A DNA stretch of 64,000 nucleotides from Candidatus Pacearchaeota archaeon (GTDB taxonomy: Archaea; Nanobdellota; Nanobdellia; Pacearchaeales; GW2011-AR1). Below are positions 4,603 to 64,000 of the stretch, piece by piece. Location of the stretch: positions 322,074 through 386,073 of the forward strand of contig JAVZCO010000001.1 of the NCBI GenBank assembly GCA_038874355.1. Reading direction: 5' to 3'. Position numbers and translations under genes: made by a program. Numbering within the stretch: position 1 is the first letter of the stretch; the number at the start of each line of letters is the position of its first letter. The notes beneath the pieces are model-generated. The model made no database searches and had not been told where the DNA came from. It saw only the letters and a program-made list of their open reading frames with translations.

Positions 4603-4644
4603 TTTTTAAATAAAATATAAATATTTAAATTTAGTAAAAAAAGG

Positions 4645-5664: not shown

Positions 5665-5698
5665 AAGATAATCTTTAAAAAGATAATATTTAAATTAA

Positions 5699-6061
5699 TT
5701 ATTTTATTTCTAATAAATTTTTTCCTCTATTATATTCTTTTTTTATCCTTGCTTTATCAAATCCGTAATTTATATTTATTAAATACTTTAATATACTTGC
5801 CATTTCTATATATTTTTCTGAAAAAACTTCAATATCTACATTATTATTTGGGTATTCTTTTAAAGAAATAGGTTTTTTATAAAAAAATTTAATTTTTTTA
5901 TTTCTTAATTCAATAAAATAATCTTTATATAAATCTATATTATTTTTTTCTTTTTTAATAACATATTCTGATTTTATTATTTTTGATAAATTCCTAAATT
6001 TATTATTTTCTTTTTGTACTATTCTATTTAATATTTCAAAAATTTCTTTTTTATTTATCAT
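5699..6061 (-). CDS. hypothetical protein
   Basis: 120-aa ORF with normal codon usage and no recognised motif. Confidence 0.3.
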   Translation of the reverse strand: MINKKEIFEILNRIVQKENNKFRNLSKIIKSEYVIKKEKNNIDLYKDYFIELRNKKIKFFYKKPISLKEYPNNNVDIEVFSEKYIEMASILKYLININYGFDKARIKKEYNRGKNLLEIK

Positions 6062-6121
6062 GTGGAAATATTAAAAGATCTATTTATAAATATTTCTATT
6101 AAAATTTTAATAAAAATAAAT

Positions 6122-6550
6122 TTAAAATTCTATTTTATTCTTATCTGGAAAAAAAATTTCCATTTTTCCAGAAGAAGGATAAAATATTATATCTCTTTTT
6201 GAATCTAGAATGAGAAACTTATAATTTATTTTATTCTTTTTAAAAATTTCTTCTAAAACTTTTTTTTCTTCTTTTATAAAATTTCCACATAAAACGACTT
6301 TTGCACTTAAATCTTTTTTATTTATTCTTTTTAAATATTTTTCAATTTCCTTTTTTAAAATTGAAGGAAAATAAGAATAATGTAAAAGAGCACCCTCATT
6401 TTCAGAGTAGAGAGCAACTCCAACACATCCACAATAATTTTTAGAGCATTTTATTGAAGAATCAAAATCAGATTCTTCGTCTATTTCAATTTCTTTAAAT
6501 TTTATTCCATTTTTTTTGAATTTTTTTATCTTTTTTTCATAATTTTCCAT
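6122..6550 (-). CDS. hypothetical protein, weak CheD-like resemblance
   Basis: YCGCVGVALYSENEGALLHYS loosely resembles the CheD GSCVAVCLYD...GMAHIMLP core. Weak evidence. Confidence 0.3.
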   Translation of the reverse strand: MENYEKKIKKFKKNGIKFKEIEIDEESDFDSSIKCSKNYCGCVGVALYSENEGALLHYSYFPSILKKEIEKYLKRINKKDLSAKVVLCGNFIKEEKKVLEEIFKKNKINYKFLILDSKRDIIFYPSSGKMEIFFPDKNKIEF

Positions 6551-6559
6551 ATTCCTATT

Positions 6560-8290
6560 TTATACCCCCCATGTAATTTTTTCTTTTCTCTTTATTGACG
6601 CAATTTCTTGTAATATCCTAATCTCTTCCTCTGATAAAAGATGTTTATTCTCTTTAAATTTTTTAAATTCCCTTTCTGTTAATTCAGAATAAAGAAAATT
6701 AATATTTTTTAATTGTCTTTCGAAATTTAATCCAGGCAAACTTATTGCAACTTCTTCTCCACTTGAAACCTCTTGTAAACTATTTTTTTCTTTTTGTATA
6801 GATTTTACTCTTCCTATTTCATTATTATTATCATCAATTAAAAAAGTTCCTATTTTTAATTTTCCATATAAAACTCTAACCCCAAATATTGCGGGATTAC
6901 TATTTCTAAAAACATATTGATGTAAAATTTGTAATTTACATAAAGAAGTGAGTTCCATTAATTTCTTCCTTTCAATTTCTTTTTGTTTTTCTTCTCTTGA
7001 TTTTATAATTTCTTCTATTATTTTATAAACAATATCTCCTAAGATTATTTTTACTTCTTTTGACATATCTAAAGCATCTTCTTCAATTGAAACATTAAAA
7101 CCTACAATAATTGAATTTAAAGGATCTTTTTCTTCATTTGTTTTTGCAAGAATAATATCATTTTTCGTTATATTTCCTACACCCGCCTTCAAAATTTTTA
7201 TATTGGATTGTTTAAGTAAAAATATAAGTGCCTCTAAACTTCCTAAAGATTCTGCTTTTATTATTATTCCTTGTTTATCTGTTTCTATTTTTTTTAGTTC
7301 TAAATTAAATTCTTTTTCTATTTCTGTTATTTTTTTATTTAAAAGACAAAAAGGCATACCCGCAAGAATACCCTCCATATTTGTTAGATGTAATCTTAAT
7401 CCTGTTGCAGCATTTGTTTCATTTACAGATTTAAATTTATTTTCCAATGGAATTATTTCTTCTATTGTTCTTATTTTTGTTATTATAGGTTTATCAAAAG
7501 AAGCAATTGCTATTTCATCTCCTGTTTTTAATTTTCCATCATATAATATTGCTTCAAGATAATTTATTGTTTTTTCTTTTTTTACTTCTAAAATAATTCC
7601 TTTAGCATCTTCTTTTAATTCTAATTGCTTTTTTAAGAATTTTTGACATAAACCACATAAAGTTAATAATAATTCTGGAACACCTTCAAAAGATTTTGCT
7701 GATATAGGACATATTGCAACTTTTTTTGTGTAGTCTTGTATGTTATAAAATAAATCAGCATCAAAATTATAAAATTGTAAAGCAGAAACAATAGAGTAAA
7801 ATTTTTCATCAAATTCATTTTTTGTTATATAATTTTGTGATTCTATATTTTTTTTTATATCATTATCTCTCTTTTTCCATCCACTTAGGTTATCTATCTT
7901 ATTTAAAGCAATGATAAAAGGAGTTTTGTTTTCTTTTAGAATTTGTAAACACTCTGAAGTTTGTGGCATAATTCCTTCATTAATATCAATTACAAGAATA
8001 GCAAGATCTGCTAAACTACCGCCTCTTTTTCTTAAATTTGTAAAAGCTGCATGACCAGGAGTGTCTATAAATAATAAACCAGGGATCTCTAATTTAATAT
8101 TCTTTTTTTCTATTATAGGACATATTTCTTTTATTCTCTCTAAAGGAAATAAACTAAAATATATTTTTTGAGTTATTCTTCCTGCTTCTTTTTCAACAAT
8201 GTTTGACCCTCTTAGACTATCAAGTAAAGTAGTCTTACCATGATCAACATGTCCTACTATAGTTACTATAGGTTGTCTTATTTTTGTCAT
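6560..8290 (-). CDS. infB: translation initiation factor aIF5B (IF2 homolog)
   Basis: G1 motif VGHVDHGKTTLLD, DTPGH, NKID. 576-aa four-domain architecture typical of aIF5B. Confidence 0.8.
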   Translation of the reverse strand: MTKIRQPIVTIVGHVDHGKTTLLDSLRGSNIVEKEAGRITQKIYFSLFPLERIKEICPIIEKKNIKLEIPGLLFIDTPGHAAFTNLRKRGGSLADLAILVIDINEGIMPQTSECLQILKENKTPFIIALNKIDNLSGWKKRDNDIKKNIESQNYITKNEFDEKFYSIVSALQFYNFDADLFYNIQDYTKKVAICPISAKSFEGVPELLLTLCGLCQKFLKKQLELKEDAKGIILEVKKEKTINYLEAILYDGKLKTGDEIAIASFDKPIITKIRTIEEIIPLENKFKSVNETNAATGLRLHLTNMEGILAGMPFCLLNKKITEIEKEFNLELKKIETDKQGIIIKAESLGSLEALIFLLKQSNIKILKAGVGNITKNDIILAKTNEEKDPLNSIIVGFNVSIEEDALDMSKEVKIILGDIVYKIIEEIIKSREEKQKEIERKKLMELTSLCKLQILHQYVFRNSNPAIFGVRVLYGKLKIGTFLIDDNNNEIGRVKSIQKEKNSLQEVSSGEEVAISLPGLNFERQLKNINFLYSELTEREFKKFKENKHLLSEEEIRILQEIASIKRKEKITWGV

Positions 8291-25942: not shown

Positions 25943-27625
25943 ATGAAAAGTAAATTTTTAATTTTAGCAACAATTTTGTTTAGCTTAACAATATTAAATT
26001 TTGTTAGCGCAAGTTTAATTTTTTCTCAAAATTCAGTTTATCTATCAAAATCCATTAACTCAACAGAAATAATTTTAACAAATAATGAAAATGAAACTGT
26101 AACCATAACATATCCAACAACAATAACAATTTATTCTGGAACAATCTTAAGAGACGAAATTTCTTACTCTATAAGTTTAGAAAACGCAACTTTAGAAGAA
26201 GGAAATAGTACAAAAATTATTATATCTTTACAAAAAAGTCCTTCTAATTGGAAAAACTTCAAAATAGGAAAATTGTATTCAACTATTATTACCTTTACTG
26301 GGAATTATTCTAATTGGACAGATAATAAAAATTTAACTCTTTACTTTGTTAATGATTTTTGTAAATATGGTGAAGTAGGAAAAATAGAAATATATAAAGT
26401 TACAGACGAATTAAAAGATAATGAAGATGAATGGATATGGCATCCTCTTGATAATATAAAAATAAAAGTTAATGATGTTTATAATGGATTCGATAAGTCT
26501 AAAAAAATAAAAGTGGAATATGCTTTATATGATAGTAATGGAAAAAATAAACTTGATTTAGAAAATATAGAAAGATACAAAATATTGAAAATAGACAGTG
26601 GAGATGAAAAAGACGTAACTTTTGAATTTAGAATTCCAGCAGATATTGAAGAAGGAACATATAAATTATTTGTTAAAGCATACATAGATGAAGATGAAGA
26701 TGAAGGTTGTACTTCTATAATAAACAGCGAAACAATATATTATCAAGAAGTAGAAATTGAAAAAGAATATGATAGAGCAGTTATTATTGATGAATATGAA
26801 TTAAATCCTATACAAGCAACTTGCGGAGAAAATATAATCTTAAATTTGCCAATATATAATATAGGAAATAAAGATGAAGAAAAAGTCCTTGTTAATTTAT
26901 ATAATAAAGAGTTAGGAATAAATTTATATGAGGTAATAGAAGAATTAGAAAAAGGAGAATCTACCTATGTAACATTTAACTTTGAAATACCACAGAATGC
27001 AACAGAAAAAATATACAATCTTGAAATTATTACATATTATGATTATGATGAAGATAATTCAAAATGTAATAAAGATACAGATATATATTGTTATGATGAA
27101 GATTCAAAAACAGATTTAGAAAAAAAATTTTATCAATCTATAACTGTAAAAGGAAATTGTATAACAACAACAAAAGAAAAAAATGTAAAGATAATGGCAT
27201 CTTTGATGAATGAAGAAGAAATAAAAGCCGGAGATGAGGTAGAAATAAAAATAACTTTTACAAATACAGGAAATAAGACAACTTCTTATATAATCATGGC
27301 TAGTGATTATGAAGATTGGGCAAATTTAATAAGCCTCGAACCGCAATCTTTTAATTTAGTCCCTAGCGAAAGCAGAGATGCTGTATTGAAGTTTAAGATA
27401 AACAAAGATACTTATGGGGAACAAACTTTCAAGATTAAAGTTTTATTTGATGGAATAACAGAAGAAAAAAGCATATCTTTAGAAATTGAACCACAACAAT
27501 CAAAATTTACAATAAGATTACCCAAGATATTTGAAGAAAATAAAATTTTACTTTGGATAATAATTGTTAATATTATCTTAATAATATTAATAATAATTGT
27601 TGCTATAAAAGTGTCTAGAAGTTAA
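25943..27625 (+). CDS. secreted surface protein (S-layer/adhesin-like) with C-terminal TM anchor
   Basis: N-terminal signal peptide, many N-x-S/T sequons, beta-rich repeats, C-terminal hydrophobic helix followed by basic tail KVSRS. Confidence 0.55.
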   Translation: MKSKFLILATILFSLTILNFVSASLIFSQNSVYLSKSINSTEIILTNNENETVTITYPTTITIYSGTILRDEISYSISLENATLEEGNSTKIIISLQKSPSNWKNFKIGKLYSTIITFTGNYSNWTDNKNLTLYFVNDFCKYGEVGKIEIYKVTDELKDNEDEWIWHPLDNIKIKVNDVYNGFDKSKKIKVEYALYDSNGKNKLDLENIERYKILKIDSGDEKDVTFEFRIPADIEEGTYKLFVKAYIDEDEDEGCTSIINSETIYYQEVEIEKEYDRAVIIDEYELNPIQATCGENIILNLPIYNIGNKDEEKVLVNLYNKELGINLYEVIEELEKGESTYVTFNFEIPQNATEKIYNLEIITYYDYDEDNSKCNKDTDIYCYDEDSKTDLEKKFYQSITVKGNCITTTKEKNVKIMASLMNEEEIKAGDEVEIKITFTNTGNKTTSYIIMASDYEDWANLISLEPQSFNLVPSESRDAVLKFKINKDTYGEQTFKIKVLFDGITEEKSISLEIEPQQSKFTIRLPKIFEENKILLWIIIVNIILIILIIIVAIKVSRS

Positions 27626-37649: not shown

Positions 37650-37918
37650 AAGAGTGCAGATCAGGAAGCTAGCTACATAAGAATTAATAAACTTATCTTG
37701 AGTATCCTTGTTCTTGTAACCCTACAAGCATCTTAACTTTTACTTAGTGCTGCTTCATTCCTGACCTCGCACGTTTCGTAAAAGCAAGATCGAGTAGGAC
37801 AAGAACTCATTGTTAACTCAAGGGTTTATTAATTCCTATCTCACCAGCTTCTTTACGGCTCGCCATAAGTCCATTTGCGATTGGCAGAGGACTAACCTGC
37901 CCACCTGATCTGCATTAT
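37650..37918 (-). ncRNA. ffs: signal recognition particle RNA (7S/SRP RNA)
   Basis: GC-rich island in AT-rich DNA. Terminal inverted repeat tgcagatcagg/cctgatctgca, as expected for helix 1. Minus strand contains GGUCAGGAAUGAAGCAGC, which matches the conserved helix-8 GGUCAGG...GAAGCAGC motif. Confidence 0.55.
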
Positions 37919-52249: not shown

Positions 52250-52599
52250 ATGTGAGTTGGATATAAGCCGCATTCTGTCAATCCCTGCCTGAACAGACGG
52301 ATTGTGCCAACATTCGACTATGCCTCTTAAAAGAGTTGCACCGACTGAGTTGGCCGTTTCATCATATCTCTTGTTTCATAGTTCTTTGCATAATTCATTA
52401 CTCTACAAGAGCTGTGTCGTTTCTGTTCCAGAGCTTACTCTCACGAGTATCTTCCTTTCGGAAGACAGCCCTCTTTAACAAGAGTTGTCTCTTTTAGAAG
52501 AGACAAGGTGTGCGGACTTTCCTCAGAACCAGCCTTGATTACTTTTTCAAGGCTTGTTGATTTAACAACAGGTTCCGAAGTTGGCTATCCAACTCGCAT
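52250..52599 (-). ncRNA. rnpB: RNase P RNA
   Basis: GC-rich island with terminal inverted repeat gagttggata/tatccaactc (P1). Minus strand carries GAGGAAAGUCCGCACACC (P4 5' strand, consensus AGGAAAGUCCGGGC) and ACAGAAUGCGGCUUAU (P4 3' strand, consensus ACAGAAcCCGGCUUA). Confidence 0.75.
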
Positions 52600-52729: not shown

Positions 52730-55700
52730 ATGAAAAAAGAGATATTATTGTTATTATTTTGTTTTATTTGTTCATATGCACTGTTACCAGAAAATATTAC
52801 AGCTACTTGTTTAATACCTCCTTCTAATCCTTCTTATGATTACAACAATGATAATATAATTGATATTTATGATGTTAATTCTTTACTTCAAGTATCTATT
52901 GAATTAAGTAATTGTCAATCAAATAAAATTTGTGACCTAAATAATGATGGAATAATAGATATATCTGATGTTAATCTTCTTCAAAATTGGATTTATTCTA
53001 ATAACTGTCCTTTACTTAATTGTTCAGATAATCAGACCATAATGAAAGTTTCTAATATAACAAATGCTTATGCAGAAATTTGGAATGAAACAGAAAATTA
53101 TCTTTATCCAATCTGTTACCAAAATATATTCGGAGTCAATTATCCTGAACAAAATTCTCATGAATGTATAAAAAATAATAAAGTTATTGGGCTATCTTTG
53201 ACAAAAAACGCTCTTGCAGAGATTCCCTCTCTAAATAATTACCCGGTTAACGTTTGTTATGGAGATTTAGAATGTAACTCTACAAATCAATCTTGTGATT
53301 CTCTTGGCACAAATTATAAAGAGATTATAAGATTATCTAAAGAGACAAATGCTCTTTTAGAGATACCAATTAATTTTAGTTCATTTATTTTAGAGATTAA
53401 AGGAACATCAAAAGAAAATATATCGCATGTTAAAAATTATGAAAAAACAATAATATTAACAGATAAAATAGAAAATAAAACCATGATTGTACAAACCGAT
53501 ACATATGTAAATATTATGGAACCTCCTTCTAATTATCTTTCTTATTTTCCTTACCGGCAAACTACAAAAACATTTCAAGCAAATAAAGGGGATAATGTTA
53601 GTATAAAAGTTTTATACAAACAACAATTATCAAGTAATATTATCATTACTTACGGTATATACAAAAATGATATAAATATATATAATGTTACACAAATTAG
53701 AACACCAAACAAAGTTGGATTAGCAGCAGTATATAGAGAAGATAAAAGAGAATATTCTGAGAAAATAAAAGAATCAAAAGAAATAAGAAAAGAATATGCA
53801 GAAAAAGAAATAAAAAAATTTGGAAAAATTCCAGATAGTGTAATTAGCGAATCTTTAATGGATAATTTTGTTGGTTATTCTTATAGTGGCAGTAAAGATG
53901 TTAATAATTTTGTTACAATCAGTTCTGCTAATATTTATATAGATAATAATACAAAAGCAATAAAATTATTTCAAAAAGCAAGTACAATTGCTATTTGTGG
54001 TATGGTTAGAATGTGTATATCTACACCGAATGGATTATGTAATTCAAGTTATCAAAGCAATTATATGTTTCTTCATCATCTTTATTATGTAAATTATAAT
54101 GAAACCGGCGATTATATAATTCCTAATAATTTTGGTTGTAAAGGATATTATTATAATAAAAGCAGAGGAGATTTATACCTGCCTTCTTTAGATAAGAGTA
54201 TGGTTAGAATAGGAGAGATGAGAATAGATAATCCTCCTATTGGTAATCAAACTATTATCGTTCAAGTTGCTGGAACAAGCGACGTTTATTTAAGAGGAGG
54301 AGAAATATATTTAGAAAAAAATTCTAATTTATCACAAGAATTTATCGTAAGTAGTAATAATCCTTTTGTAAATGTTTATTTTTCAGATACGAAAGAAAAT
54401 AAAACAACTAATATAGCATCAGATATTCTAGGAAAATTATTGTTATATAACACTTTTCCAATAAAAATTTGTTGTAAGTCATTAATAGCCGAAAATATAC
54501 CATATCATCAAACAGAAGAACCAAATCAAACAGAATTTGGTTGTAATGTTAGTGAAAATCATCCTTATGATTATAATGATGATAAAGTTATTGATGCTTC
54601 AGATACAGGATTTTTACTAAAGGTTGCTTTAGAGTTAAATAACTGTCCATCAAATAAAATTTGTGACTTAAATAATGATGGAACAATAGATATATCTGAT
54701 GTTACTCTTCTAGTGAGATATATAACTGTAGATAATTGTAATATAACTATACCACAAATCCCAAAAGGAATAGCATACTGGGCTGATATGAATCAAAATT
54801 ATATAAATAAAACTAATGTAAATGATAGTGTATTAATGATATACAATATAGGAGAAGAATATAACGGACAGGAAATTAATTTTGAAGTTCATGAAGTAGA
54901 TAAAGGTTTATTTGATGTAGATTGTTCTGGTGACTGGCCTAATGAAGCAAGATATGCAAAAGCAAATGTTATTAATGGAAAAGCAATTGCTTTATGGAAA
55001 GCAAGATATTGTTCTAATGGAGAAAGTGATGGAGTTTATTTTATAGCAAAATTAAATGATACTATAAAAAATGAATCAGATATACTAGAAATTCTTTCTT
55101 ATAATAATGAAAAACCATATATAAAAATATTATCTCCTGAAAATGAAGATAAATTCTTAGTTAATAATGATATATCTTTTAATCTTTTCTATAAAGATGT
55201 AGATGACGAATTAGAAATAACATGGAATTTCAATAATGAAAATACAACAACTTTAACTAATTGCTTAAATAATAATTGTAATATAATAAAACATAGTTTT
55301 AATACACCTGGAGTTAAGATAATAAAAGTAAGAGCAAAAGAAAAGAATAGAGAACAATATTCAGAAGATGCAATATCCTTATATATTTATAAAGAAGGAA
55401 TAAATGTATTTGCAGTTATATCTAAACCAGATCCTAAAAAAGAAATAATAATTCAAAATATAACAAAAGTAGAATTTGACGGTTCTTCTTCATATGTATC
55501 AAATTGTACTAAATGTGAAAATAATATCTGTATAAATTGTCCTTCTAATAAAGAATGCTATAATGTAACAAGCAATACAGAAATATTACAATGTTTTGAT
55601 TTGCCAAAACCACAGCCAATAAATAGTCCTTTGCAAGGATATAACTTATGGTTTAATTGGACTATTTTAAGAGAAGATAATAACTTATACGGTAATATAT

Positions 55701-55807
55701 ATGGAGATTGGAATGAAAATTATTATAGCAGTGTTAATTTTAATCATACTTTTCGTCAATCAGGAAAATATAAAGCAAAATTAAAAGTAGGTTATGAACC
55801 ATTATAA
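52730..55807 (+). CDS. large secreted protein with two dockerin modules (N-terminal and internal)
   Basis: Signal peptide. Two Ca-binding dockerin repeat pairs (DYNNDNIIDIYD + DLNNDGIIDISD, and DYNDDKVIDASD + DLNNDGTIDISD), each bracketed by Cys. Many N-glycosylation sequons. Confidence 0.65.
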   Translation: MKKEILLLLFCFICSYALLPENITATCLIPPSNPSYDYNNDNIIDIYDVNSLLQVSIELSNCQSNKICDLNNDGIIDISDVNLLQNWIYSNNCPLLNCSDNQTIMKVSNITNAYAEIWNETENYLYPICYQNIFGVNYPEQNSHECIKNNKVIGLSLTKNALAEIPSLNNYPVNVCYGDLECNSTNQSCDSLGTNYKEIIRLSKETNALLEIPINFSSFILEIKGTSKENISHVKNYEKTIILTDKIENKTMIVQTDTYVNIMEPPSNYLSYFPYRQTTKTFQANKGDNVSIKVLYKQQLSSNIIITYGIYKNDINIYNVTQIRTPNKVGLAAVYREDKREYSEKIKESKEIRKEYAEKEIKKFGKIPDSVISESLMDNFVGYSYSGSKDVNNFVTISSANIYIDNNTKAIKLFQKASTIAICGMVRMCISTPNGLCNSSYQSNYMFLHHLYYVNYNETGDYIIPNNFGCKGYYYNKSRGDLYLPSLDKSMVRIGEMRIDNPPIGNQTIIVQVAGTSDVYLRGGEIYLEKNSNLSQEFIVSSNNPFVNVYFSDTKENKTTNIASDILGKLLLYNTFPIKICCKSLIAENIPYHQTEEPNQTEFGCNVSENHPYDYNDDKVIDASDTGFLLKVALELNNCPSNKICDLNNDGTIDISDVTLLVRYITVDNCNITIPQIPKGIAYWADMNQNYINKTNVNDSVLMIYNIGEEYNGQEINFEVHEVDKGLFDVDCSGDWPNEARYAKANVINGKAIALWKARYCSNGESDGVYFIAKLNDTIKNESDILEILSYNNEKPYIKILSPENEDKFLVNNDISFNLFYKDVDDELEITWNFNNENTTTLTNCLNNNCNIIKHSFNTPGVKIIKVRAKEKNREQYSEDAISLYIYKEGINVFAVISKPDPKKEIIIQNITKVEFDGSSSYVSNCTKCENNICINCPSNKECYNVTSNTEILQCFDLPKPQPINSPLQGYNLWFNWTILREDNNLYGNIYGDWNENYYSSVNFNHTFRQSGKYKAKLKVGYEPL

Positions 55808-55829: not shown

Positions 55830-56315
55830 ATGATTGGAATTTTTATTTTAGCTGCTATCTTTATATTTTTTATAGTTATTTTTATATTTATTGAATCTAG
55901 GAAAAAGATGATAACAATAAATTTAGAAAAGTTTCAATTCAAACCCGGAGAAGAAATAAAGGGTCAAATATTTTTAAATTTAAAAAAACCTGTAAAAGCA
56001 GAGGAACTAGTAGTTGGACTTGCTGGAAAGCAAAGAAGTAGGAAAGGAGATGATATTGATGGTTATAAAGTCTTTGAATTCTTCCAAAGATTAGACGGAG
56101 AAAAAATATATACTTCAACCCCAGAACCTTATAATTTCTCTATTATGATTCCTTCTAATATTATATCTCAAGTTAAAGATAATTTAGGGAGAACTATCCT
56201 AAATGTTATAGGAACTCTAACAGGATCTTTTCATTTAGTAAGATGGTATGTTGTTGTTAGATTAAAGACTTATGGAATTGATATAACAAAAGAAGTTCAA
56301 ATTAATATATATTAA
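55830..56315 (+). CDS. membrane-anchored arrestin/Spo0M-like domain protein
   Basis: N-terminal TM. FQFKPGEEIKGQIFLNLKKPVKAEELVVGLAG resembles the Spo0M/arrestin-N HYAPGEEVRGVVHVKGGKVEQDIDHITLAL block. Confidence 0.4.
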   Translation: MIGIFILAAIFIFFIVIFIFIESRKKMITINLEKFQFKPGEEIKGQIFLNLKKPVKAEELVVGLAGKQRSRKGDDIDGYKVFEFFQRLDGEKIYTSTPEPYNFSIMIPSNIISQVKDNLGRTILNVIGTLTGSFHLVRWYVVVRLKTYGIDITKEVQINIY

Positions 56316-56608: not shown

Positions 56609-57103
56609 ATGAAAAAAATATTAAATTTGTTGTTTTTAGGTTATTTTTCTTTAGCAAGCCTTCTTCCTTTAGATTTAAAGGGAAAAAATTTAAAAAGAAT
56701 AGTAATAGATAAATCCGATAGAAAATTATATGTTTATGAAAATGATAAAATAATAAAAACTTTTCTCGTTGGTATAGGAAAAGAAGAATATGAAACTCCT
56801 ACTGGAAAATTTAAAATAAAAGAAATAAGAAAAGATCCTTATTGGATTCCTCCGGAAAAAGATTGGGCAAAAAAAGCAAAAAAGTATGTAAATGATAAAG
56901 GAGTAATTCCTTATGATCATCCTTATAATCCTTTGAGGTATTATTTTATTAATTTAGGAAATGGAATAGGAATTCATGGTTATAGAAATGATATGGGAAT
57001 AGGAAAAAAAAGTTCTCATGGTTGTATCAGAGCAAAAAAAGATTGTTTAGAGTACATTGTAAATAATTTTTTTATTGGAGACGAAGTAATAATTCAAGAA
57101 TAG
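56609..57103 (+). CDS. secreted L,D-transpeptidase (YkuD-domain) protein
   Basis: Signal peptide. YkuD catalytic region GIHGYRNDMGIGKKSSHGCIRAKKD (His...Cys). Confidence 0.7.
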   Translation: MKKILNLLFLGYFSLASLLPLDLKGKNLKRIVIDKSDRKLYVYENDKIIKTFLVGIGKEEYETPTGKFKIKEIRKDPYWIPPEKDWAKKAKKYVNDKGVIPYDHPYNPLRYYFINLGNGIGIHGYRNDMGIGKKSSHGCIRAKKDCLEYIVNNFFIGDEVIIQE

Positions 57104-59418: not shown

Positions 59419-59593
59419 TATTATAAGATAAAATATAAGATTATAAAGTTTTTGCTGAATATTTTTATAAAAAATAATATAAATAAAAAAAAGAAAATAT
59501 TTATAAATAGTACTTTCTTTTTTTAAAATTATAAATAATAATCTTTATTAAAAATAAGGGGTGATAATATAAATAAAACTAAAAACCCCGAAG

Positions 59594-61561
59594 ATGAAAA
59601 GAAACAGAGTAAAGAATTTAAAAATAATTTTCTTAGTTTTATTCTTAGTATTCTTTCTATTTCACTATTTTATTCTCATTGAAGCAAAGACAACAAGAAA
59701 TAAAATTAATTATCTTACATCAATAAACAATTTAATAAAAAATAAAAATTATTTTATTGATTATGAAAAATTACAATATAATTATGAACTAGCAGAAATA
59801 CAAAAAAAGATTAAAGAAAAAAATTTATCTTGGCAGGCTGGAGAAACAGAAGTTTCTAAATTACCTAAAGAACAAAGGAAAAAATTGTTAAGTGGAATCA
59901 TAGAAGTAAAAGACATAGAAAAATCAGAAGAAGAACAAATAAATAATTTTGATTTAAAATATTATGAAAATTCTTTACCTTCTTCTTTTGATTGGAGAAA
60001 TAAAGATGGTGTAAATTGGATGACTCCTGTTAAAAATCAGTTTTTATGTGGAAGCTGTTGGGCATTTGCTGATGTTGGAGTTATTGAAGCTGCCTTCAAT
60101 ATTTATCAAAACAATCCAGATCTTGATTTAGATTTATCTGAACAAGACGTAATTTCTTGTTCTGGATATGGAAGCTGTGGCGGAGGAACAGCAGGAGGTG
60201 GGCTTCTTTATGCAATAAATACAGGAATAGTTAATGAGACATGTTTTCCTTACACTGCAACAAATAATAATTGTTCAAATAAATGTTATAATGGAGAAAA
60301 ATATAAAATAAAGGGAAGATTTAATTACGGTTTCTATAATCACACAAATGAATATTGGAAATCTATATTAATGAAATATGGACCCGGAACTGTTCTTATG
60401 TATGCTCCTGATGATTTTTTATTCTATATTGGTGGAATTTATGAGCCTCTTAATGATGAAAAATCCGGATATGCGAATCATGCTGTAGTGTTAGTTGGAT
60501 GGAATGACACTGGCTTTAATGAAACAACAAATATGACAGAAGGATACTGGATAGTAAAAAATTCATGGGGGACTTATTGGGGAGAGAATGGATATGGAAA
60601 GATTAAATATGGAATTATAGAATCCTATAGGACTTTTTTAGTTGTTACTGGAATAATAAATGGAAGTATTACTTGTTCTAAAAATTCTGATTGTGGAATA
60701 GATAATTGTTATAATGGAACTTATAAAAAATTCTCTTGTATTAATCCAGACACAGAATATTCTTATTGTTCTTCTCAAGATATTATAACGGATAATGACC
60801 TAGACGGATATGATATTCAATGTGAATATGATTGTGATGATAACGATTCAAGTAAATGGCAAATCTTAAATGGATATCTAGATTACGATAAAGACAATTA
60901 TGGGGCAGGAGATATTATCAATGTTTGTTCTGGAAATAATTTACCATTAGGATATTCTTATATTTCTGGCGATTGTAATGACAATGATAGTTCAATATAT
61001 CCAAATGCTCAAGAATTATGCGATGAAAAAGACAATGATTGTAATTTCTTAATTGATGAAATTTTCTTAAATAAAGGAAAGAGTTGTGATGTTGGAGTTG
61101 GTTTTTGTAAAAGAACAGGAATTTTTATTTGCTCTTCAAATGGTTTAGAAACAATTTGTAACGTTATTCCAGGAGACCCAAAAAGAGAATTATGTTTTAA
61201 TGAAATAGACGATGATTGTGATGGAGAAGTAGATGAAGAAGATTGTGGAATTAAAGGAGATATAAATGATGATAGTATTGTAGATATTTCTGATGTTATC
61301 TTAACATTAAGAATGGCAATTGAATTAAATTTAACAATTAGAGGGAATAACTACGAGTATCCATATCCCGATTGGCTGATTAATAAAGCCGATATAAACG
61401 ATGATAAAGTTATTGATATTTATGATACAATATTAATTTTAAGAATATCTCTCGGTCTAAACTCTGAAGAAAAATTGACAGAATCTCAAATTCCTTCTTT
61501 TATAAAAACAGAAATAGAGAAAAAAGGTATGTGTATTGATGATATAAAAAAGATAAAATAA
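59594..61561 (+). CDS. secreted papain-family (C1A) cysteine protease with Cys-rich MopE-like repeats and C-terminal dockerin
   Basis: Signal peptide. Catalytic Gln/Cys NQFLCGSCWAF, His NHAVVLVGW, Asn NSWG. Three CxxxDCDDND-type repeats. C-terminal dockerin DINDDSIVDISD + DINDDKVIDIYD. Confidence 0.75.
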   Translation: MKRNRVKNLKIIFLVLFLVFFLFHYFILIEAKTTRNKINYLTSINNLIKNKNYFIDYEKLQYNYELAEIQKKIKEKNLSWQAGETEVSKLPKEQRKKLLSGIIEVKDIEKSEEEQINNFDLKYYENSLPSSFDWRNKDGVNWMTPVKNQFLCGSCWAFADVGVIEAAFNIYQNNPDLDLDLSEQDVISCSGYGSCGGGTAGGGLLYAINTGIVNETCFPYTATNNNCSNKCYNGEKYKIKGRFNYGFYNHTNEYWKSILMKYGPGTVLMYAPDDFLFYIGGIYEPLNDEKSGYANHAVVLVGWNDTGFNETTNMTEGYWIVKNSWGTYWGENGYGKIKYGIIESYRTFLVVTGIINGSITCSKNSDCGIDNCYNGTYKKFSCINPDTEYSYCSSQDIITDNDLDGYDIQCEYDCDDNDSSKWQILNGYLDYDKDNYGAGDIINVCSGNNLPLGYSYISGDCNDNDSSIYPNAQELCDEKDNDCNFLIDEIFLNKGKSCDVGVGFCKRTGIFICSSNGLETICNVIPGDPKRELCFNEIDDDCDGEVDEEDCGIKGDINDDSIVDISDVILTLRMAIELNLTIRGNNYEYPYPDWLINKADINDDKVIDIYDTILILRISLGLNSEEKLTESQIPSFIKTEIEKKGMCIDDIKKIK

Positions 61562-61638
61562 GAGGAAAAATTCTTAAACAAATATAAATAAAAAAAAGAA
61601 AATATTTATAAAGTATTTTTCTTATATCTAAATATTAA

Positions 61639-64000
61639 TGAGAATAAAAAGAGGATTTTTTATTTGTGCAAGTTTAATTTTTATATTTTCTATTTTTTGT
61701 AATCTTAATTTTGTTTTAGGTGCTGCATTTAATATTACTGGCTATACTTACGGAATTGAAGGTAATTGGAAAGCAGCATTAAACGCAACTAATATTACAA
61801 TTGAAATTTATCAAAAAAATATGAATGGCCCCCATTATTTAAACACAACTTTATCAACTTTATCAAATGAAAGCGGATATTTTAATATAGAAATTCCTGA
61901 AGATTATTCAAACGATAATTTCTTTTATAAAATAATTCTTATTAAGTACAATGAAAATAATAGTGATTTAGCAAGATTTATCGGCCCAAACTTGCCTTAT
62001 TTTCCTTCTGACCAATTAAGCAATTTAGGAACAGTTTATTTTTATTTAAGGCCAGCCATAACAATTGACATTTCTGCAATAGGAATAGAACATGTTACAG
62101 ATGATGAAAATAGAATTAAATATAATGATATTAATACTTTCCCAGAAGATTATAAAACAGGTTTAGAAATAATTAATAATTCTGGAGAAAAACAATATGC
62201 TTATATAAACAATAGCGATTGTCTAATTGTATTAAATGAAAGTTTTGATTTAAATTCTTCTTTTTGTGATTTAAATATAACAAATATAGATGATTTTACT
62301 CTCGGTCTTGAAGAAGAAATCTATTTTATTAATCTAACAGAAATACAAAAATGCTTTTTTGATCTTTCAACTGGTAGTGCAGATTGTAATAAAGAACAAG
62401 GAAATTCTACAGATATATCTGAATTAAATCTTTCTAAAACTGGAGGAATTTCATTTAATAAATTCATCAACGGAGATGAAAAATTATTTATTTCTGCTCT
62501 AAACGAAAGTGGAAATAGTTATGTTTATGTTTATAATTATAGTGATTTAAGTTTTATAAAATCAATTTCTACTCCTGATTGTCCTATTGGCAAATTAATT
62601 TTTCAACCAGGGGGTGGTTTTGGTATAGGAAATAACTCAGGAAGATATGTTTTTTATAAATTTATATTAAATGAGCAAGAAGGATTTAGTTGTAGTTCTA
62701 ATTTGTTAAATTTAACAGAAGGAATGATTGTTAAAGGATTTGATACAGAAGCAGATTTTGGCAATGAATATTATATTGTTTCTAATCAAAGTGGGACAAC
62801 AAACTTAACACAAATTAATTTTTTTACATCTGATTACAACTTTAGATACCAATTTAAAGATAAAAAACTTGGTTATAGTATAAAAGAAAGTTTTGATTCT
62901 TTAAAATATTCTGACAGAATATATATTCCTGCTGATAGAAATTATTCTTTTATGATTTACCCAGAAGGCGGCCCGGCTTTTCCTGTAAGCATAGAATTAA
63001 ATAATTTAGTTCATAATAGCAAAATTTCATTAGGAACAGCAGAAAATAGAACTATTACTTCAATAAATCAATCTTTATACTTAAATCTTACAAACTTAAA
63101 TTTAACCACACAATTAGTAAAATTAAGTGGTTATTCAAAGTTAAATGGATCTGATGAAAAAAATTTTACAGATTATACTATTGTTGCTTATTTAATTGAA
63201 TCAAATAACATTGTCTTTTCACAAGCAATGTTGCCTCAAAATATAGGACAATTTAGCGAAAATGGGTTTGAAGATGTTTTTAATAAAACAAACGGTTTTT
63301 ATAACATGACATTACCATCAGCAGTTTATGGAGCAAACATTTTATTATTTGCTAATGCGAAAAAAGATAATGTTTGGTATGGAGGATTCAAAATAATAAC
63401 ATTAAATTATGGAGAAACGCCAGATGAATTAAATATAACTTTATATCCTTTAGTAGGAAAAGAATCAATATTAGAAAGAACAATGGGGGCAGGAGATGAT
63501 GTTAATGTTTCTCTTTTTACATTTAATATAACAAGCTTATTAGAAAATGGAAATAAAACAGATGTTACAAACGTTCATTCAGAAATTTCTATTGATTATT
63601 CCCATTTTAGTGGCTCAAATGTTTCTTTTTCATGGATGGTAGATTCAGGAAATGAAAATCTTCTTAAAGTCCCTTTATTAAACAATAGTGTTAATATAAA
63701 AATATTTTCTCCACAATTTCCTCCTATAAAAAGAACAATAAAAATAGAGAATCTACAAAATGATACTTATGAGATAACTTTAGAGCAATTAAAGGCAAAA
63801 AAACCAAATGGTGAAGAAATACAAAATGTCCAATTTAGGAATTTTAAATACAAAGAGGATAGCTCTTGTTCTGTTCCTTGGCCAAATGAACAACCAGGAG
63901 AACAAGGATGTTTGCCTGATGGGATTGGTTCTGGCGGAGGTCCTGTAAATCCTTTTACATGGGTTATAAGTGGTGGAAAATATGATTTAGAAATAAGACA
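61639..64000 (+). CDS. large secreted surface protein (5' part; continues past the window end)
   Basis: ATG at 61639, with signal peptide MRIKRGFFICASLIFIFSIFCNLNFVLGA. My own translation shows an open frame to position 64000 with no stop. Dense N-x-S/T sequons. Confidence 0.55.

What the first reader, a model, noticed from the sequence alone, without database searches (positions are those of the whole stretch)
59594..61561. Papain-like protease fused to MopE-type Cys-rich metal-binding repeats and a dockerin
The catalytic triad context (QxxxxxC in NQFLCGSCWAF, His in NHAVVLVGW, Asn in NSWG) is intact, so the enzyme is probably active. Between the catalytic domain and the dockerin are three repeats of the pattern C-x(n)-DCDDNDSS / DCNDNDSS / DEKDNDCN. 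These resemble the putative metal-binding motif common in Myxococcus (MopE-like). The combination of protease, Cys-rich repeats and dockerin is unusual and points to an extracellular protease targeted to a scaffold or to a host surface.
Basis: partly seen in the sequence, partly recalled or inferred. Interest (0 to 1): 0.55.

Follow-up and report, generated by a model that had tools for sequence, protein, structure and literature searches.

The report
Dockerin-tagged secreted papain-family protease, Pacearchaeota
This gene from a tiny, probably symbiotic archaeon encodes an apparently active secreted papain-type protease with a cysteine-rich stalk and a docking module at its tail; every part is a known kind, so it is a well-built but fairly ordinary modular surface enzyme.

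Summary
The ORF at 59594..61561 (+) is real and encodes 655 aa. The identical protein is already in NCBI as "C1 family peptidase [Candidatus Pacearchaeota archaeon]".

- **Catalytic domain:** it is a confident C1A papain-family domain (Pfam 167 bits). Gln149, Cys155 and Asn323 are invariant and His296 is at least 90% conserved across 78 homologues. An N-terminal hydrophobic signal or anchor and a roughly 95-aa pro-region precede it, and the model superposes on procathepsin zymogens.
- **Repeats:** TIGR02232 does not match. The region has no similarity to the MopE protein, no His and only one Trp, so copper binding is unsupported. Calcium-stabilised, disulfide-rich spacer modules are more likely.
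- **Dockerin:** it falls below Pfam threshold (18.1 against 22.9 bits) but is genuine. A subfamily profile hits solved type I dockerins, AlphaFold pLDDT is 96-98, and the top eight PDB fold matches are all dockerins. It belongs to a long-linker subfamily often found next to cohesins.
- **Partner:** no cohesin lies in the window.

Dockerin-bearing cysteine peptidases are already known, so this is a new member of a known kind. Interest is modest.

The parts
59480..59507 (+). Promoter-like A/T element TAAATAAAAAAAAGAAAATATTTATAAA, probably a BRE/TATA-type archaeal promoter, about 87 nt upstream of the ATG
   Evidence: There are exactly two copies in the window, here and at 61585-61612 in front of the next ORF, against 0.02 expected. 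The 15-nt core occurs at 7 sites against 0.86 expected. Promoter function is inferred.
59594..61561 (+). Complete ORF of 655 aa plus stop: modular secreted C1A peptidase
   Evidence: The product is identical to NCBI 'MAG: C1 family peptidase [Candidatus Pacearchaeota archaeon]' (P0001).
59594..59686 (+). aa 1-31: N-terminal signal peptide or signal anchor (MKRNRVKNLK + 19 hydrophobic residues + IEA|K)
   Evidence: This is the only hydrophobic segment of the protein (Kyte-Doolittle 19-residue window above 1.6 only at aa 4-16 starts). Homologues P0005 and P0027 have classical cleavable signals. Cleavage itself is not testable here.
59687..59974 (+). aa 32-127: pro-region of the non-ERFNIN type with a conserved W80-x-A-G motif
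   Evidence: W80 is at least 90% conserved in 78 homologues. The model of aa 1-352 aligns over 320-340 columns with procathepsin L and K, procaricain and the cathepsin B1 zymogen, target TM 0.72-0.78. No Pfam propeptide model hits.
59975..60628 (+). aa 128-345: papain-family (C1A) catalytic domain. Gln149 is at 60038-60040, Cys155 at 60056-60058, His296 at 60479-60481 and Asn323 at 60560-60562.
   Evidence: PF00112 at E 7.5e-49. PDB 1jqp at E 8e-46 with the catalytic residues aligned. Q149, C155 and N323 are invariant and H296 is at least 90% conserved. pLDDT is about 95-98.
60659..60829 (+). aa 356-412: first Cys-rich module (6 Cys), no family assignment
   Evidence: It is shared with P0002, P0003 and P0032. 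The AF2 model shows three strands at pLDDT 62-87. No Pfam or PDB hit.
60830..60853 (+). aa 413-420: DCDDNDSS, an isolated first half of a PF11617 motif
   Evidence: register by comparison with the Myxococcota blocks.
60872..61060 (+). aa 427-489: Asp-rich hairpin (YLDYDKDNYG) followed by the one complete 30-aa PF11617 motif (aa 460-489, DCNDNDSSIYPNAQELCDEKDNDCNFLIDE)
   Evidence: The best PF11617 stretch covers aa 460-488 against profile positions 1-29 of 30. The same block order is seen in many MopE-related proteins.
61085..61159 (+). aa 498-522: small four-Cys knot (CDVGVGFCKRTGIFICSSNGLETIC)
   Evidence: It aligns with CG.G.C......C....C of Myxococcota MopE-related proteins and of P0027.
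   Evidence: Pfam reports two PF11617 stretches. The register matches P0027 aa 395-411 against profile positions 14-30 and the blocks.
61250..61459 (+). aa 553-622: type I-like dockerin of the long-linker subfamily. Ca loop 1 is aa 556-567 (61259-61294) and Ca loop 2 is aa 600-611 (61391-61426).
   Evidence: D/N occupy loop positions 1, 3, 5, 9 and 12 in both loops. There are 157 relatives, nearly all at a C-terminus. Profile A1 hits solved dockerins 2y3n_B at 1.5e-6 and 1ohz_B at 3.2e-5. pLDDT is 96-98, and the top 8 PDB fold hits are all dockerins. Pfam Dockerin_1 scores only 18.1 bits, below the 22.9 cutoff.
61460..61558 (+). aa 623-655: conserved 33-aa C-terminal tail of unknown role
   Evidence: It is shared only with P0003. 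Two short helices are predicted at pLDDT 66-84.

Best explanation
The gene encodes a secreted, zymogen-type papain-family (C1A) endopeptidase of a Pacearchaeota (DPANN) archaeon.

The N-terminal hydrophobic segment takes it across the membrane. The roughly 95-residue pro-region keeps it inactive until it is cleaved off. That cleavage would also free the enzyme from any N-terminal membrane anchor.

Behind the catalytic domain lies a stalk of about 200 residues with 18 cysteines and 52 Asp/Asn. It is built from an unassigned Cys-rich module and PF11617 motif modules. The stalk most likely acts as a rigid, disulfide- and calcium-stabilised spacer and not as a copper site.

The C-terminal dockerin has two intact calcium loops with near-symmetrical helices. 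It then tethers the mature enzyme to a cohesin-bearing protein, most likely on the archaeon's own surface and possibly on a partner cell. Proteolysis therefore happens next to the cell, feeding an organism that probably has little biosynthetic capacity.

**Shown:** the domain composition, intact catalytic residues, the zymogen-like fold, dockerin homology and fold, and the link between this dockerin subfamily and cohesins.

**Inferred:** secretion, activation by pro-region removal, calcium binding, cohesin binding, and the physiological role.
For: - **Catalytic domain:** PF00112 at E 7.5e-49. The catalytic Gln, Cys, His and Asn align with cathepsin C. Gln149, Cys155 and Asn323 are invariant and His296 is at least 90% conserved in 78 homologues. 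The model has pLDDT 89.8 and superposes on procathepsins over 320-340 columns.
- **Export:** the single hydrophobic segment is at the N-terminus.
- **Stalk:** PF11617 scores 38-48 bits, and the same block order occurs in many secreted MopE-related proteins. There are 18 Cys, an even number, between aa 361 and 551.
- **Dockerin:** the loops have D/N at positions 1, 3, 5, 9 and 12. A profile of 43 subfamily members hits solved type I dockerins full length. pLDDT is 96-98, and the top 8 PDB fold hits are all dockerins.
- **Cohesin link:** 10 of 47 carriers of this dockerin type also carry a Cohesin domain.
- **Genome use of dockerins:** a second secreted protein 4 kb upstream carries two dockerins.
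- **Conservation:** the architecture is conserved at 62-63% identity in P0003.
- **Organism:** the window is archaeal (archaeal RNase P and SRP RNAs; the NCBI name).
- **Precedents:** a dockerin-bearing cysteine peptidase binds a surface cohesin in R. flavefaciens (PMC5301203). Archaeal cohesin-dockerin pairs bind and may attach proteins to the cell's outer layer (PMC9012536).
Against: - No cohesin is encoded in the 64-kb window in any frame. The remaining roughly 510 kb of the contig could not be examined, so the partner is unknown.
- Pfam's Dockerin_1 model is below its gathering score.
- No signal-peptide predictor was available. The 19-residue hydrophobic core is long enough to be a membrane anchor.
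- The MopE region was modelled poorly (pLDDT below 50), so its fold and metal sites are unverified.
- The 33-aa tail behind the dockerin is unexplained.
- The neighbourhoods of relatives show no conserved partner gene.
Confidence: 0.55

Rival explanations
1. The protease is secreted as described, but the C-terminal module does not bind a cohesin. It could act as a calcium-dependent stabilising or folding element, or bind some other ligand such as S-layer glycan, a host surface or polysaccharide. This would match the many 'orphan' dockerins in genomes that lack cohesins.
For: There is no cohesin in the window. The subfamily has a conserved 10-13-residue insertion forming a beta-hairpin and short helix that canonical dockerins lack, plus an extra conserved tail here. 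Only 10 of 47 carriers have a cohesin in the same protein. The literature notes that the meaning of archaeal dockerins is unclear from presence alone (PMC9012536).
Against: Tandem cohesin-dockerin proteins are common in exactly this subfamily. The recognition-helix positions are conserved and symmetrical, as in dual-binding type I dockerins. Archaeal cohesin-dockerin pairs have been shown to bind (refs 167 and 168 cited in PMC9012536).
Confidence: 0.25
2. The PF11617 repeats are true metal-binding sites for copper or another transition metal, as the Pfam name suggests. On this view the protein couples proteolysis with metal capture or metal-dependent regulation.
For: The PF11617 hit is above threshold, and the Pfam name is 'putative metal-binding motif'. 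The region has a high density of Cys and Asp.
Against: The profile covers only a small part of MopE and 'lacks specificity' (PMC6189053). No match to the solved MopE protein appears at E <= 10. The region aa 413-551 has no His and one Trp, whereas MopE's copper ligands are His, His and kynurenine (Helland 2008, my own knowledge). The motif's D-x-D-x-D-G-x-x-D pattern is so like the dockerin calcium loop that MAFFT repeatedly aligned them to each other, which points to calcium. The even number of Cys fits disulfides.
Confidence: 0.07
3. The protein stays membrane-anchored by an uncleaved N-terminal signal anchor (type II topology). It works as a cell-bound protease whose C-terminal dockerin captures other cohesin-bearing proteins or cells, acting as an adhesin arm and not as a tether for the enzyme.
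For: The hydrophobic core is 19 residues and the model shows a continuous helix over aa 4-50. Only a weak cleavage motif (IEA|K) is present.
Against: C1A pro-regions are normally removed on activation (established knowledge of the family), and that would sever the enzyme from an N-terminal anchor. Homologues have classical cleavable signals such as VLASA|PE in P0005.
Confidence: 0.12
4. It is an exopeptidase of the cathepsin C (dipeptidyl peptidase I) type, because cathepsin C is the best solved match.
For: 1jqp and 3pdf are the top sequence hits (E 8e-46) and 1jqp is the top fold hit (E 1.9e-21).
Against: The matches start at residue ~204 of the cathepsin C chain, so they cover only the catalytic domain. 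The roughly 120-residue exclusion domain that makes cathepsin C an exopeptidase (established knowledge) has no counterpart. The N-terminal region here is helical and aligns with ordinary pro-regions.
Confidence: 0.04

Closest known systems
Dockerin-bearing putative cysteine peptidase of Ruminococcus flavefaciens FD-1 (ZP_06142181, 'Peptidase-UNK-Doc'), which binds the cell-surface cohesin ScaE
   Same: A cysteine peptidase module is joined through a spacer to a C-terminal, internally symmetrical dockerin. Experiments show that dockerin anchoring the enzyme to the cell surface through a cohesin (PMC5301203).
   Different: It is a bacterial cellulosome component. Its peptidase module only 'resembles papain-like cysteine peptidases' and is not a classical C1A enzyme. 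Its dockerin is type III, group 4. It has no PF11617 stalk.
Archaeal C1 peptidases with dockerin, such as P0016 (Euryarchaeota; C1+PKD+dockerin), P0019 (cluster includes Methanosarcinales archaeon; C1+BACON+cohesin+dockerin) and P0005 (C1+dockerin, closest relative with a Pfam-valid dockerin)
   Same: They share a homologous catalytic domain (41-59% identity), the same signal and pro-region layout, and a C-terminal dockerin.
   Different: The spacer modules are PKD, BACON or Ig domains instead of Cys-rich PF11617 modules. P0019 carries its own cohesin. The dockerins of P0005 and P0016 are short-linker forms.
Cathepsin C / cathepsin L-type C1A peptidases (PDB 1jqp, 1cs8, 1pci)
   Same: Fold, catalytic Gln-Cys-His-Asn, conserved Trp residues after the Asn, two of the papain disulfide positions, and zymogen organisation.
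   Different: It has no exclusion domain (cathepsin C) and no ERFNIN-type I29 pro-domain detected by Pfam. It carries a 310-residue C-terminal extension with a stalk and a dockerin.
MopE-related / 'putative metal-binding motif-containing' secreted proteins of Myxococcota (PF11617 repeat proteins)
   Same: They share the block order Asp-rich hairpin, full PF11617 motif, four-Cys knot, second half-motif.
   Different: Those proteins are mostly repeat arrays without an enzyme domain. Here a single block serves as a linker between an enzyme and a dockerin. No relation to the copper site of MopE itself was found.
Type I dockerins of Clostridium thermocellum (e.g. Xyn10B dockerin 1ohz_B, 2ccl_B; Cel48S 1daq)
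   Same: A duplicated 22-residue segment with a 12-residue calcium loop and a recognition helix. The profile-to-sequence match is full length and the fold is similar.
   Different: A conserved insertion of about 10 residues versus 1ohz_B, and 13 versus short-linker relatives, with the pattern '..Y..PYP.WL..', is predicted to form a beta-hairpin plus a short helix. Recognition positions 10/11 are Ile-Ser and Ile-Tyr, not Ser-Thr. A 33-aa tail follows.

Membership tests
Peptidase family C1, subfamily C1A (papain family) | Sequence match to the family model above the curated threshold | tested here: met
   PF00112 scores 167.2 bits against a cutoff of 20.7, over aa 128-341.
Peptidase family C1, subfamily C1A (papain family) | Catalytic Cys-His dyad, oxyanion-hole Gln and orienting Asn in the right register | tested here: met
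   Gln149, Cys155, His296 and Asn323 align with the corresponding residues of cathepsin C. Q149, C155 and N323 are invariant and H296 is at least 90% conserved in 78 homologues.
Peptidase family C1, subfamily C1A (papain family) | Papain fold (L and R domains) | tested here: met
   The AF2 model has pLDDT 89.8. Foldseek hits include 1jqp at E 1.9e-21 and mature cathepsins K, L and V at target TM 0.83-0.88.
Peptidase family C1, subfamily C1A (papain family) | N-terminal inhibitory pro-region (zymogen) | tested here: inconclusive
   The model aligns with pro-forms over 320-340 columns, and the W-x-A-G motif is conserved.
Peptidase family C1, subfamily C1A (papain family) | Peptidase activity sensitive to E-64 | not testable with these tools
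   This needs expression and an enzyme assay.
Dockerin (type I-like, PF00404) | Match to the Pfam Dockerin_1 model above the gathering score | tested here: not met
   It scores 18.1 bits against a cutoff of 22.9 on the excised C-terminus, and gives no hit on the whole protein. Only 11 of 47 subfamily carriers match Dockerin_1 at E <= 0.001, so the model under-detects this long-linker subfamily.
Dockerin (type I-like, PF00404) | Two tandem ~22-residue segments, each a 12-residue calcium loop with D/N at positions 1, 3, 5, 9 and 12 followed by a helix | tested here: met
   The segments are DINDDSIVDISD+VILTLRMAIE and DINDDKVIDIYD+TILILRISLG. Loop Asp residues are invariant or at least 90% conserved in 43 relatives.
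Dockerin (type I-like, PF00404) | Homology to experimentally solved dockerins | tested here: met
   Profile A1 hits 2y3n_B at 1.5e-6, 1ohz_B at 3.2e-5 (profile positions 3-68 against chain residues 2-57), 4fl4_A at 3.8e-5, 2ccl_B and 1daq_A.
Dockerin (type I-like, PF00404) | Dockerin fold | tested here: met
   pLDDT is 96-98 over aa ~554-624. The eight best PDB fold matches are all dockerins, with target TM 0.57-0.81 and probability 0.90-1.00, though E-values are only 0.05-0.8.
Dockerin (type I-like, PF00404) | A cognate cohesin in the same organism, with calcium-dependent binding | tested here: inconclusive
   There is no cohesin in any frame of the 64-kb window or in the large ORFs scanned. 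Binding itself is not testable here.
MopE/CorA copper-binding proteins | Presence of the PF11617 motif | tested here: met
   It scores 38.4 and 48.2 bits against a cutoff of 27, in two stretches.
MopE/CorA copper-binding proteins | Homology to MopE beyond the short motif | tested here: not met
   There is no PDB match to MopE at E <= 10 for aa 353-552. [quoted passage not shown]
MopE/CorA copper-binding proteins | His/His/oxidised-Trp copper ligands (Helland et al. 2008; from my own knowledge) | tested here: not met
   There is no His and a single Trp (W422) in aa 413-551.
   The NCBIfam scan at E <= 1 returned only an unrelated weak hit.
Cathepsin C (dipeptidyl peptidase I) | N-terminal exclusion domain that converts the enzyme into a dipeptidyl exopeptidase | tested here: not met
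   The alignments to 1jqp and 3pdf begin at chain residue ~204-207, covering only the catalytic domain. The N-terminal 127 aa are helical and match pro-regions.

The most novel reading that the evidence does not exclude
The protease may be one client of a so far undescribed cohesin-dockerin surface system in DPANN archaea and other ultra-small, host-dependent lineages.

This system would be built on a distinct long-linker dockerin subfamily. That subfamily has a conserved beta-hairpin insertion, '..Y..PYP.WL..', and often occurs in tandem with a cohesin. It is seen in Pacearchaeota, Omnitrophota, Ratteibacteria and unclassified bacteria.

The system would dock hydrolases onto the symbiont's surface, or directly onto a host cell, so that host surface proteins are digested at the contact site. 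The identical extended promoter element in front of the protease gene and the neighbouring large secreted protein would then mark a co-regulated 'attack/feeding' surface module.
Probability: 0.15. Interest if true: 0.6.

Novelty: new member of a known kind. Interest (0 to 1): 0.3.

Why it matters
DPANN archaea such as Pacearchaeota have very small genomes and are thought to depend on other cells. How they obtain amino acids and hold on to partners is largely unknown.

A secreted, apparently active papain-type protease that carries a docking module shows that this organism invests in surface-tethered proteolysis. A second protein with two dockerins lies only 4 kb away. Together they suggest that cohesin-dockerin assembly, best known from cellulosomes, is part of its surface toolkit.

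The practical value is modest. The gene gives a concrete candidate for expression (protease specificity, calcium dependence, dockerin partner) and a usable profile of a long-linker dockerin subfamily that the Pfam model detected in only 11 of 47 carriers.

It does not change any concept. Modular secreted enzymes with dockerins, including cysteine peptidases, are already documented.

Tried and rejected
- **Pfam on the whole protein** showed no dockerin. Excising the C-terminus gave only a sub-threshold hit, so I moved to a subfamily profile and structure.
- **The look-up of encoding contigs for the protein itself** returned only a 2.1-kb Logan contig, so the 575-kb NCBI contig could not be read beyond the window.
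- **The single genome-contig scan** did not contain this MAG. It returned mainly PF11617 loci from Myxococcota, with the best C1 match at 37% identity. This did not help to find the cohesin.
- **The cohesin search** of the window in six frames, with a profile of 24 cohesin domains from carriers of this dockerin type, found nothing.
- **The third database search** with the dockerin profile returned only short fragments. These were useful for names and the alignment, but not for architectures.
- **Two C-terminal alignments (A4, A5) were discarded** because MAFFT slid PF11617 half-motifs onto the dockerin calcium loop. The final alignment, A6, is shallow in the Cys-rich region, and the model there is unreliable (pLDDT below 50).
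- **Model coordinates are not exposed**. I could not check pro-region placement, disulfide pairing or how the tail packs.
- **The downstream ORF** (61641 to beyond 64000) has no Pfam or PDB match, so I could not test whether it is the docking partner.
- **Literature:** Peer et al. 2009 and the acyloxyacyl hydrolase structure paper are not held. The possible calcium-site parallel with acyloxyacyl hydrolase (5w7d, E 0.37, not significant) therefore remains an unverified lead.
- **Neighbourhoods of relatives** P0002, P0003 and P0005 show unrelated housekeeping genes and no conserved partner.
- **A cathepsin C-like exopeptidase** was considered and rejected because there is no exclusion domain.
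- **A pseudo-enzyme** was considered and rejected because all catalytic residues are conserved.
Full report
**What is there**

The window is archaeal and extremely AT-rich, with about 19-28% G+C. It carries an archaeal RNase P RNA and an archaeal SRP RNA. It also encodes MCM, aIF2-type and aminoacyl-tRNA synthetase genes. By my reading of their translations, the ORFs next to the finding are ribosomal proteins L39e, L31e and S19e.

The ORF 59594..61561 (+) is complete at 655 aa. Its product is identical to an NCBI entry named [quoted passage not shown] on a 575,629-bp contig (P0001).

**Catalytic half**

Pfam Peptidase_C1 matches aa 128-341 at E 7.5e-49. The best solved relatives are cathepsin C (1jqp, E 8.1e-46), followed by the Blo t 1 allergen, cathepsins L, V, H, X and K, and falcipains. 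In the printed alignment the oxyanion Gln, the nucleophile Cys, the His and the Asn of "KNSWG" all pair with their counterparts.

In an alignment of 78 homologues, Q149, C152, C155, N323 and S324 are invariant. H296, W325 and W329 are at least 90% conserved.

An AlphaFold2 model of aa 1-352 is confident (mean pLDDT 89.8, pTM 0.82). Foldseek places it on mature cathepsins at target TM 0.83-0.88. It also aligns over 320-340 columns with zymogens: procathepsin L and K, procaricain, pro-papain and the cathepsin B1 zymogen, at target TM 0.72-0.78.

The roughly 95 residues between the N-terminal hydrophobic segment and the catalytic domain therefore behave as a pro-region. They contain a W80-x-A-G motif that is nearly invariant in the family. 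No Pfam propeptide model matches, so I treat the zymogen status as likely but not proven.

The matches to cathepsin C cover only its catalytic domain, from chain residue ~204. There is no exclusion domain, so there is no reason to expect dipeptidyl-peptidase behaviour.

**Export**

The only hydrophobic stretch of the protein is aa ~11-29, preceded by MKRNRVKNLK and followed by IEA|K. This fits a Sec signal peptide or a signal anchor, but no predictor was available.

Close homologues have textbook cleavable signals, for example VLASA|PE in P0005 and VRA|QG in P0027. C1A pro-regions are removed on activation (family knowledge). The mature enzyme would therefore be released from an N-terminal anchor either way. 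That would make the C-terminal module the only means of retention. This step is inferred.

**The Cys-rich stalk**

Residues 353-552 contain 18 Cys, 31 Asp, 21 Asn, no His and one Trp.

PF11617 ("Cu-binding_MopE", putative metal-binding motif) is above threshold, at 38.4 bits on the whole protein and 48.2 bits on the excised region against a cutoff of 27. It matches in two stretches, the best covering aa 460-488 against profile positions 1-29 of 30.

Comparison with dozens of Myxococcota "MopE-related" proteins shows a recurrent block:

- an Asp-rich hairpin (Y.D.D.DGYG)
- a full motif (DC[ND]D.D..[IV][YF]PGA.E.C[DN]..D[DN][DN]C[DN]G..DE)
- a four-Cys knot
- a second half-motif

Our protein has exactly one such block at aa ~427-551. 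Before it lie an isolated first half-motif (aa 413-420) and an unassigned six-Cys module (aa 356-412) shared with P0002, P0003 and P0032.

TIGR02232 does not match. The label "MopE" should not be over-read:

- The stalk has no detectable similarity to solved MopE at E <= 10.
- It lacks the His/His/Trp-derived ligands of MopE's copper site (my knowledge of Helland et al. 2008; composition).

The half-motif D-N-D-C-[DN]-G-x-V-D-E is so similar to the dockerin calcium loop that MAFFT twice aligned one onto the other. That similarity and the even Cys count lead me to infer calcium- and disulfide-stabilised spacer modules. The AlphaFold model of this part is unreliable (pLDDT below 50), so this remains an inference.

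**The dockerin**

Pfam's Dockerin_1 gives no hit on the whole protein and only 18.1 bits (cutoff 22.9) on the excised C-terminus. Four independent lines nevertheless establish it:

1. The sequence has two 22-residue segments, DINDDSIVDISDVILTLRMAIE and DINDDKVIDIYDTILILRISLG. D/N occupy calcium-loop positions 1, 3, 5, 9 and 12, and the putative recognition positions are near-symmetrical: 10/11 are I-S and I-Y, and 17/18 are L-R and L-R.
2. An exhaustive HMMER search of 1.84 billion representatives with aa 553-655 found 157 relatives at E <= 1e-3. Nearly all have the module at the extreme C-terminus, and many are 50-64% identical. Their consensus is GDINxDGxVDISDVILCLRMAxxLxVTIxGxxYxxPYPxWLxxxADxNxDxxVDIxDVILILRKxxGL.
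3. A profile of 43 of these modules hits solved type I dockerins: 2y3n_B at 1.5e-6, 1ohz_B at 3.2e-5 over its full length, 4fl4_A, 2ccl_B and 1daq_A. The only gap is an insertion of about 10 residues in the inter-repeat linker.
4. AlphaFold2 predicts aa ~554-624 at pLDDT 96-98, with the two expected helices and the insertion forming a beta-hairpin and a short helix. The eight best PDB fold matches are all dockerins, with target TM 0.57-0.81 and probability 0.90-1.00. Their E-values are weak (0.05-0.8) because a 70-residue domain was searched inside a 311-residue model.

This is a long-linker dockerin subfamily that the Pfam model under-detects. Only 11 of 47 carriers match Dockerin_1 at E <= 0.001.

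**Link to cohesins, and the missing partner**

Of 47 full-length carriers of this dockerin type, 10 also have a Pfam Cohesin domain. In P0240 the cohesin is at aa 549-654 and the dockerin at aa 680-748. A local iterative search found 24 cohesin domains in these carriers and in the C1 peptidase P0019. The subfamily therefore belongs to genuine cohesin-dockerin systems.

Named carriers come from Pacearchaeota, Omnitrophota, Ratteibacteria and unclassified bacteria.

Within the window, the dockerin profile finds only two proteins: the finding (102.9 bits) and the 1025-aa secreted protein at 52730..55807. The latter has two short-linker dockerins, one right after its signal peptide and one internal.

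The cohesin profile finds nothing in any reading frame of the window. The large ORF that begins 80 nt downstream (61641 to beyond 64000) has no Pfam or PDB match.

I could not reach the rest of the genome. The encoding-contig look-up returned only a 2.1-kb copy, and the MAG is not among the genome representatives. The docking partner is therefore unknown. It is the main gap in the mechanistic story.

**How unusual is the combination?**

Among homologues of the catalytic domain:

- C1+dockerin occurs repeatedly: P0005, P0013, P0014, P0016, P0019 and P0025. P0019's cluster includes proteins named Methanosarcinales archaeon.
- C1+PF11617 also occurs repeatedly: P0002, P0027, P0032, P0046, P0074 and P0090.
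- A PF11617 motif running directly into a dockerin occurs in P0215 and P0410.

The full arrangement is C1, Cys module, PF11617 block, long-linker dockerin and a 33-aa tail. Among the top-ranked hits of three searches, I found it only in this protein and in the contig-truncated P0003. P0003 is 62-63% identical over aa 345-655 and 66% over the dockerin and tail. Architectures were not enumerated exhaustively.

P0002 shares everything up to the PF11617 motif and then continues with different Cys-rich repeats.

The neighbourhoods of P0002, P0003 and P0005 are unrelated archaeal housekeeping genes with no conserved partner. The gene is therefore a stand-alone, modularly shuffled secretome gene.

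In the literature:

- A dockerin-bearing putative cysteine peptidase of Ruminococcus flavefaciens binds the cell-surface cohesin ScaE (PMC5301203).
- Non-cellulosomal dockerins have been suggested as adhesins in ultra-small Omnitrophota (PMC10066038).
- I found no paper on dockerin-tagged proteases in DPANN. That is weak negative evidence, because the library is incomplete.

**Verdict**

It is wrong or overstated on three points: the repeat anatomy, the TIGR02232 assignment and "MopE-type metal binding".

The best-supported mechanism is a secreted C1A zymogen with a calcium- and disulfide-stabilised stalk, tethered through a long-linker dockerin to an as yet unidentified cohesin protein. It would serve extracellular protein scavenging by a reduced-genome archaeon. 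My confidence is about 0.55 for the whole chain, and much higher for the domain assignments alone.

It is a new member of a known kind. The exact sequence is already public under a correct but minimal automatic name.

Two points of residual interest remain. One is the under-detected long-linker dockerin subfamily and the possibility of a cohesin-dockerin surface system in DPANN. The other is the identical 28-nt promoter-like element shared by this gene and its downstream neighbour.

Noticed in passing
window 52730..55807 (+): A 1025-aa secreted protein carries two short-linker dockerin modules, one right after the signal peptide (aa ~36-95) and one internal (aa 613-670), plus a weak PKD-like C-terminus. 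An N-terminal dockerin is an unusual position. (Pfam Dockerin_1 28 bits; PDB 4fl4_A at 1.2e-4.)
   Followed up: partly
window 59480-59507 and 61585-61612 (+): An identical 28-nt A/T element, TAAATAAAAAAAAGAAAATATTTATAAA, lies in front of the protease gene and in front of the next ORF (2 copies against 0.02 expected). Identity extends to about 31 nt. The 15-nt core (G/A)AAAATATTTATAAA occurs 7 times against 0.86 expected and is probably the genome's TATA/BRE consensus. The extended version may mark co-regulation of the two secreted proteins.
   Followed up: partly
window 61641..64000+ (+), runs off the window end: This large ORF (at least 786 aa) has an N-terminal signal-like segment and many N-x-S/T sites. 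It has no Pfam hit and no PDB sequence hit at E <= 1. It is a candidate surface protein of unknown family immediately downstream of the protease.
   Followed up: partly
window 56609..57103 (+): A 164-aa protein with a clear YkuD L,D-transpeptidase catalytic domain (87.3 bits) and an N-terminal hydrophobic segment, in an archaeal genome. L,D-transpeptidases act on bacterial peptidoglycan, so the enzyme may have been acquired from bacteria or may act on a bacterial partner's wall.
   Followed up: no
proteins P0240-P0332 (alignment A1); window 61250-61459: The long-linker dockerin subfamily has a conserved insertion, '..Y..PYP.WL..', predicted to form a beta-hairpin plus a short helix. It sits almost always at the extreme C-terminus, and 10 of 47 carriers also have a cohesin. 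Only 11 of those 47 match Pfam Dockerin_1 at E <= 0.001. Named carriers include Pacearchaeota, Omnitrophota and Ratteibacteria.
   Followed up: partly
window 61460-61558 (aa 623-655): A conserved 33-aa tail follows the dockerin (NSEEKLTESQIPSFIKTEIEKKGMCIDDIKKIK). It is shared only with P0003, whereas in other carriers the dockerin ends the protein. Two short helices are predicted at pLDDT 66-84. Its role is unknown.
   Followed up: partly
window 60971-61060 and 61193-61246 versus 61259-61294: The PF11617 half-motif D-N-D-C-[DN]-G-x-V-D-E and the dockerin calcium loop D-I-N-x-D-G-x-V-D-I-S-D are alike enough that MAFFT twice aligned one onto the other. This hints that the so-called copper motif is a calcium loop. 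A faint, non-significant similarity to a motif in acyloxyacyl hydrolase (5w7d, E 0.37) could not be followed because the structure paper is not held.
   Followed up: partly
window 52252-52597 (-) and 37654-37915 (-): Archaeal RNase P RNA (120 bits) and archaeal SRP RNA (104 bits) are present. Three tRNAs (Ser-GCT, Met-CAT, Phe-GAA) were also found. These confirm the archaeal origin of the window.
   Followed up: yes
window 25943..27625 (+) and 55830..56315 (+): A 560-aa protein has CARDB and NPCBM-associated domains and is another likely surface protein. A 161-aa protein has an Arrestin_N-like match (27.9 bits against a cutoff of 24.9), which is unusual in an archaeon.
   Followed up: no
locus L084 (contig of P0002), 4181-7081 (-): RtcB RNA ligase interrupted by an intein (PF01139 + Intein_splicing + PF01139), next to archease, in the Pacearchaeota-like contig that carries the closest full-length relative of the protease.
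   Followed up: no
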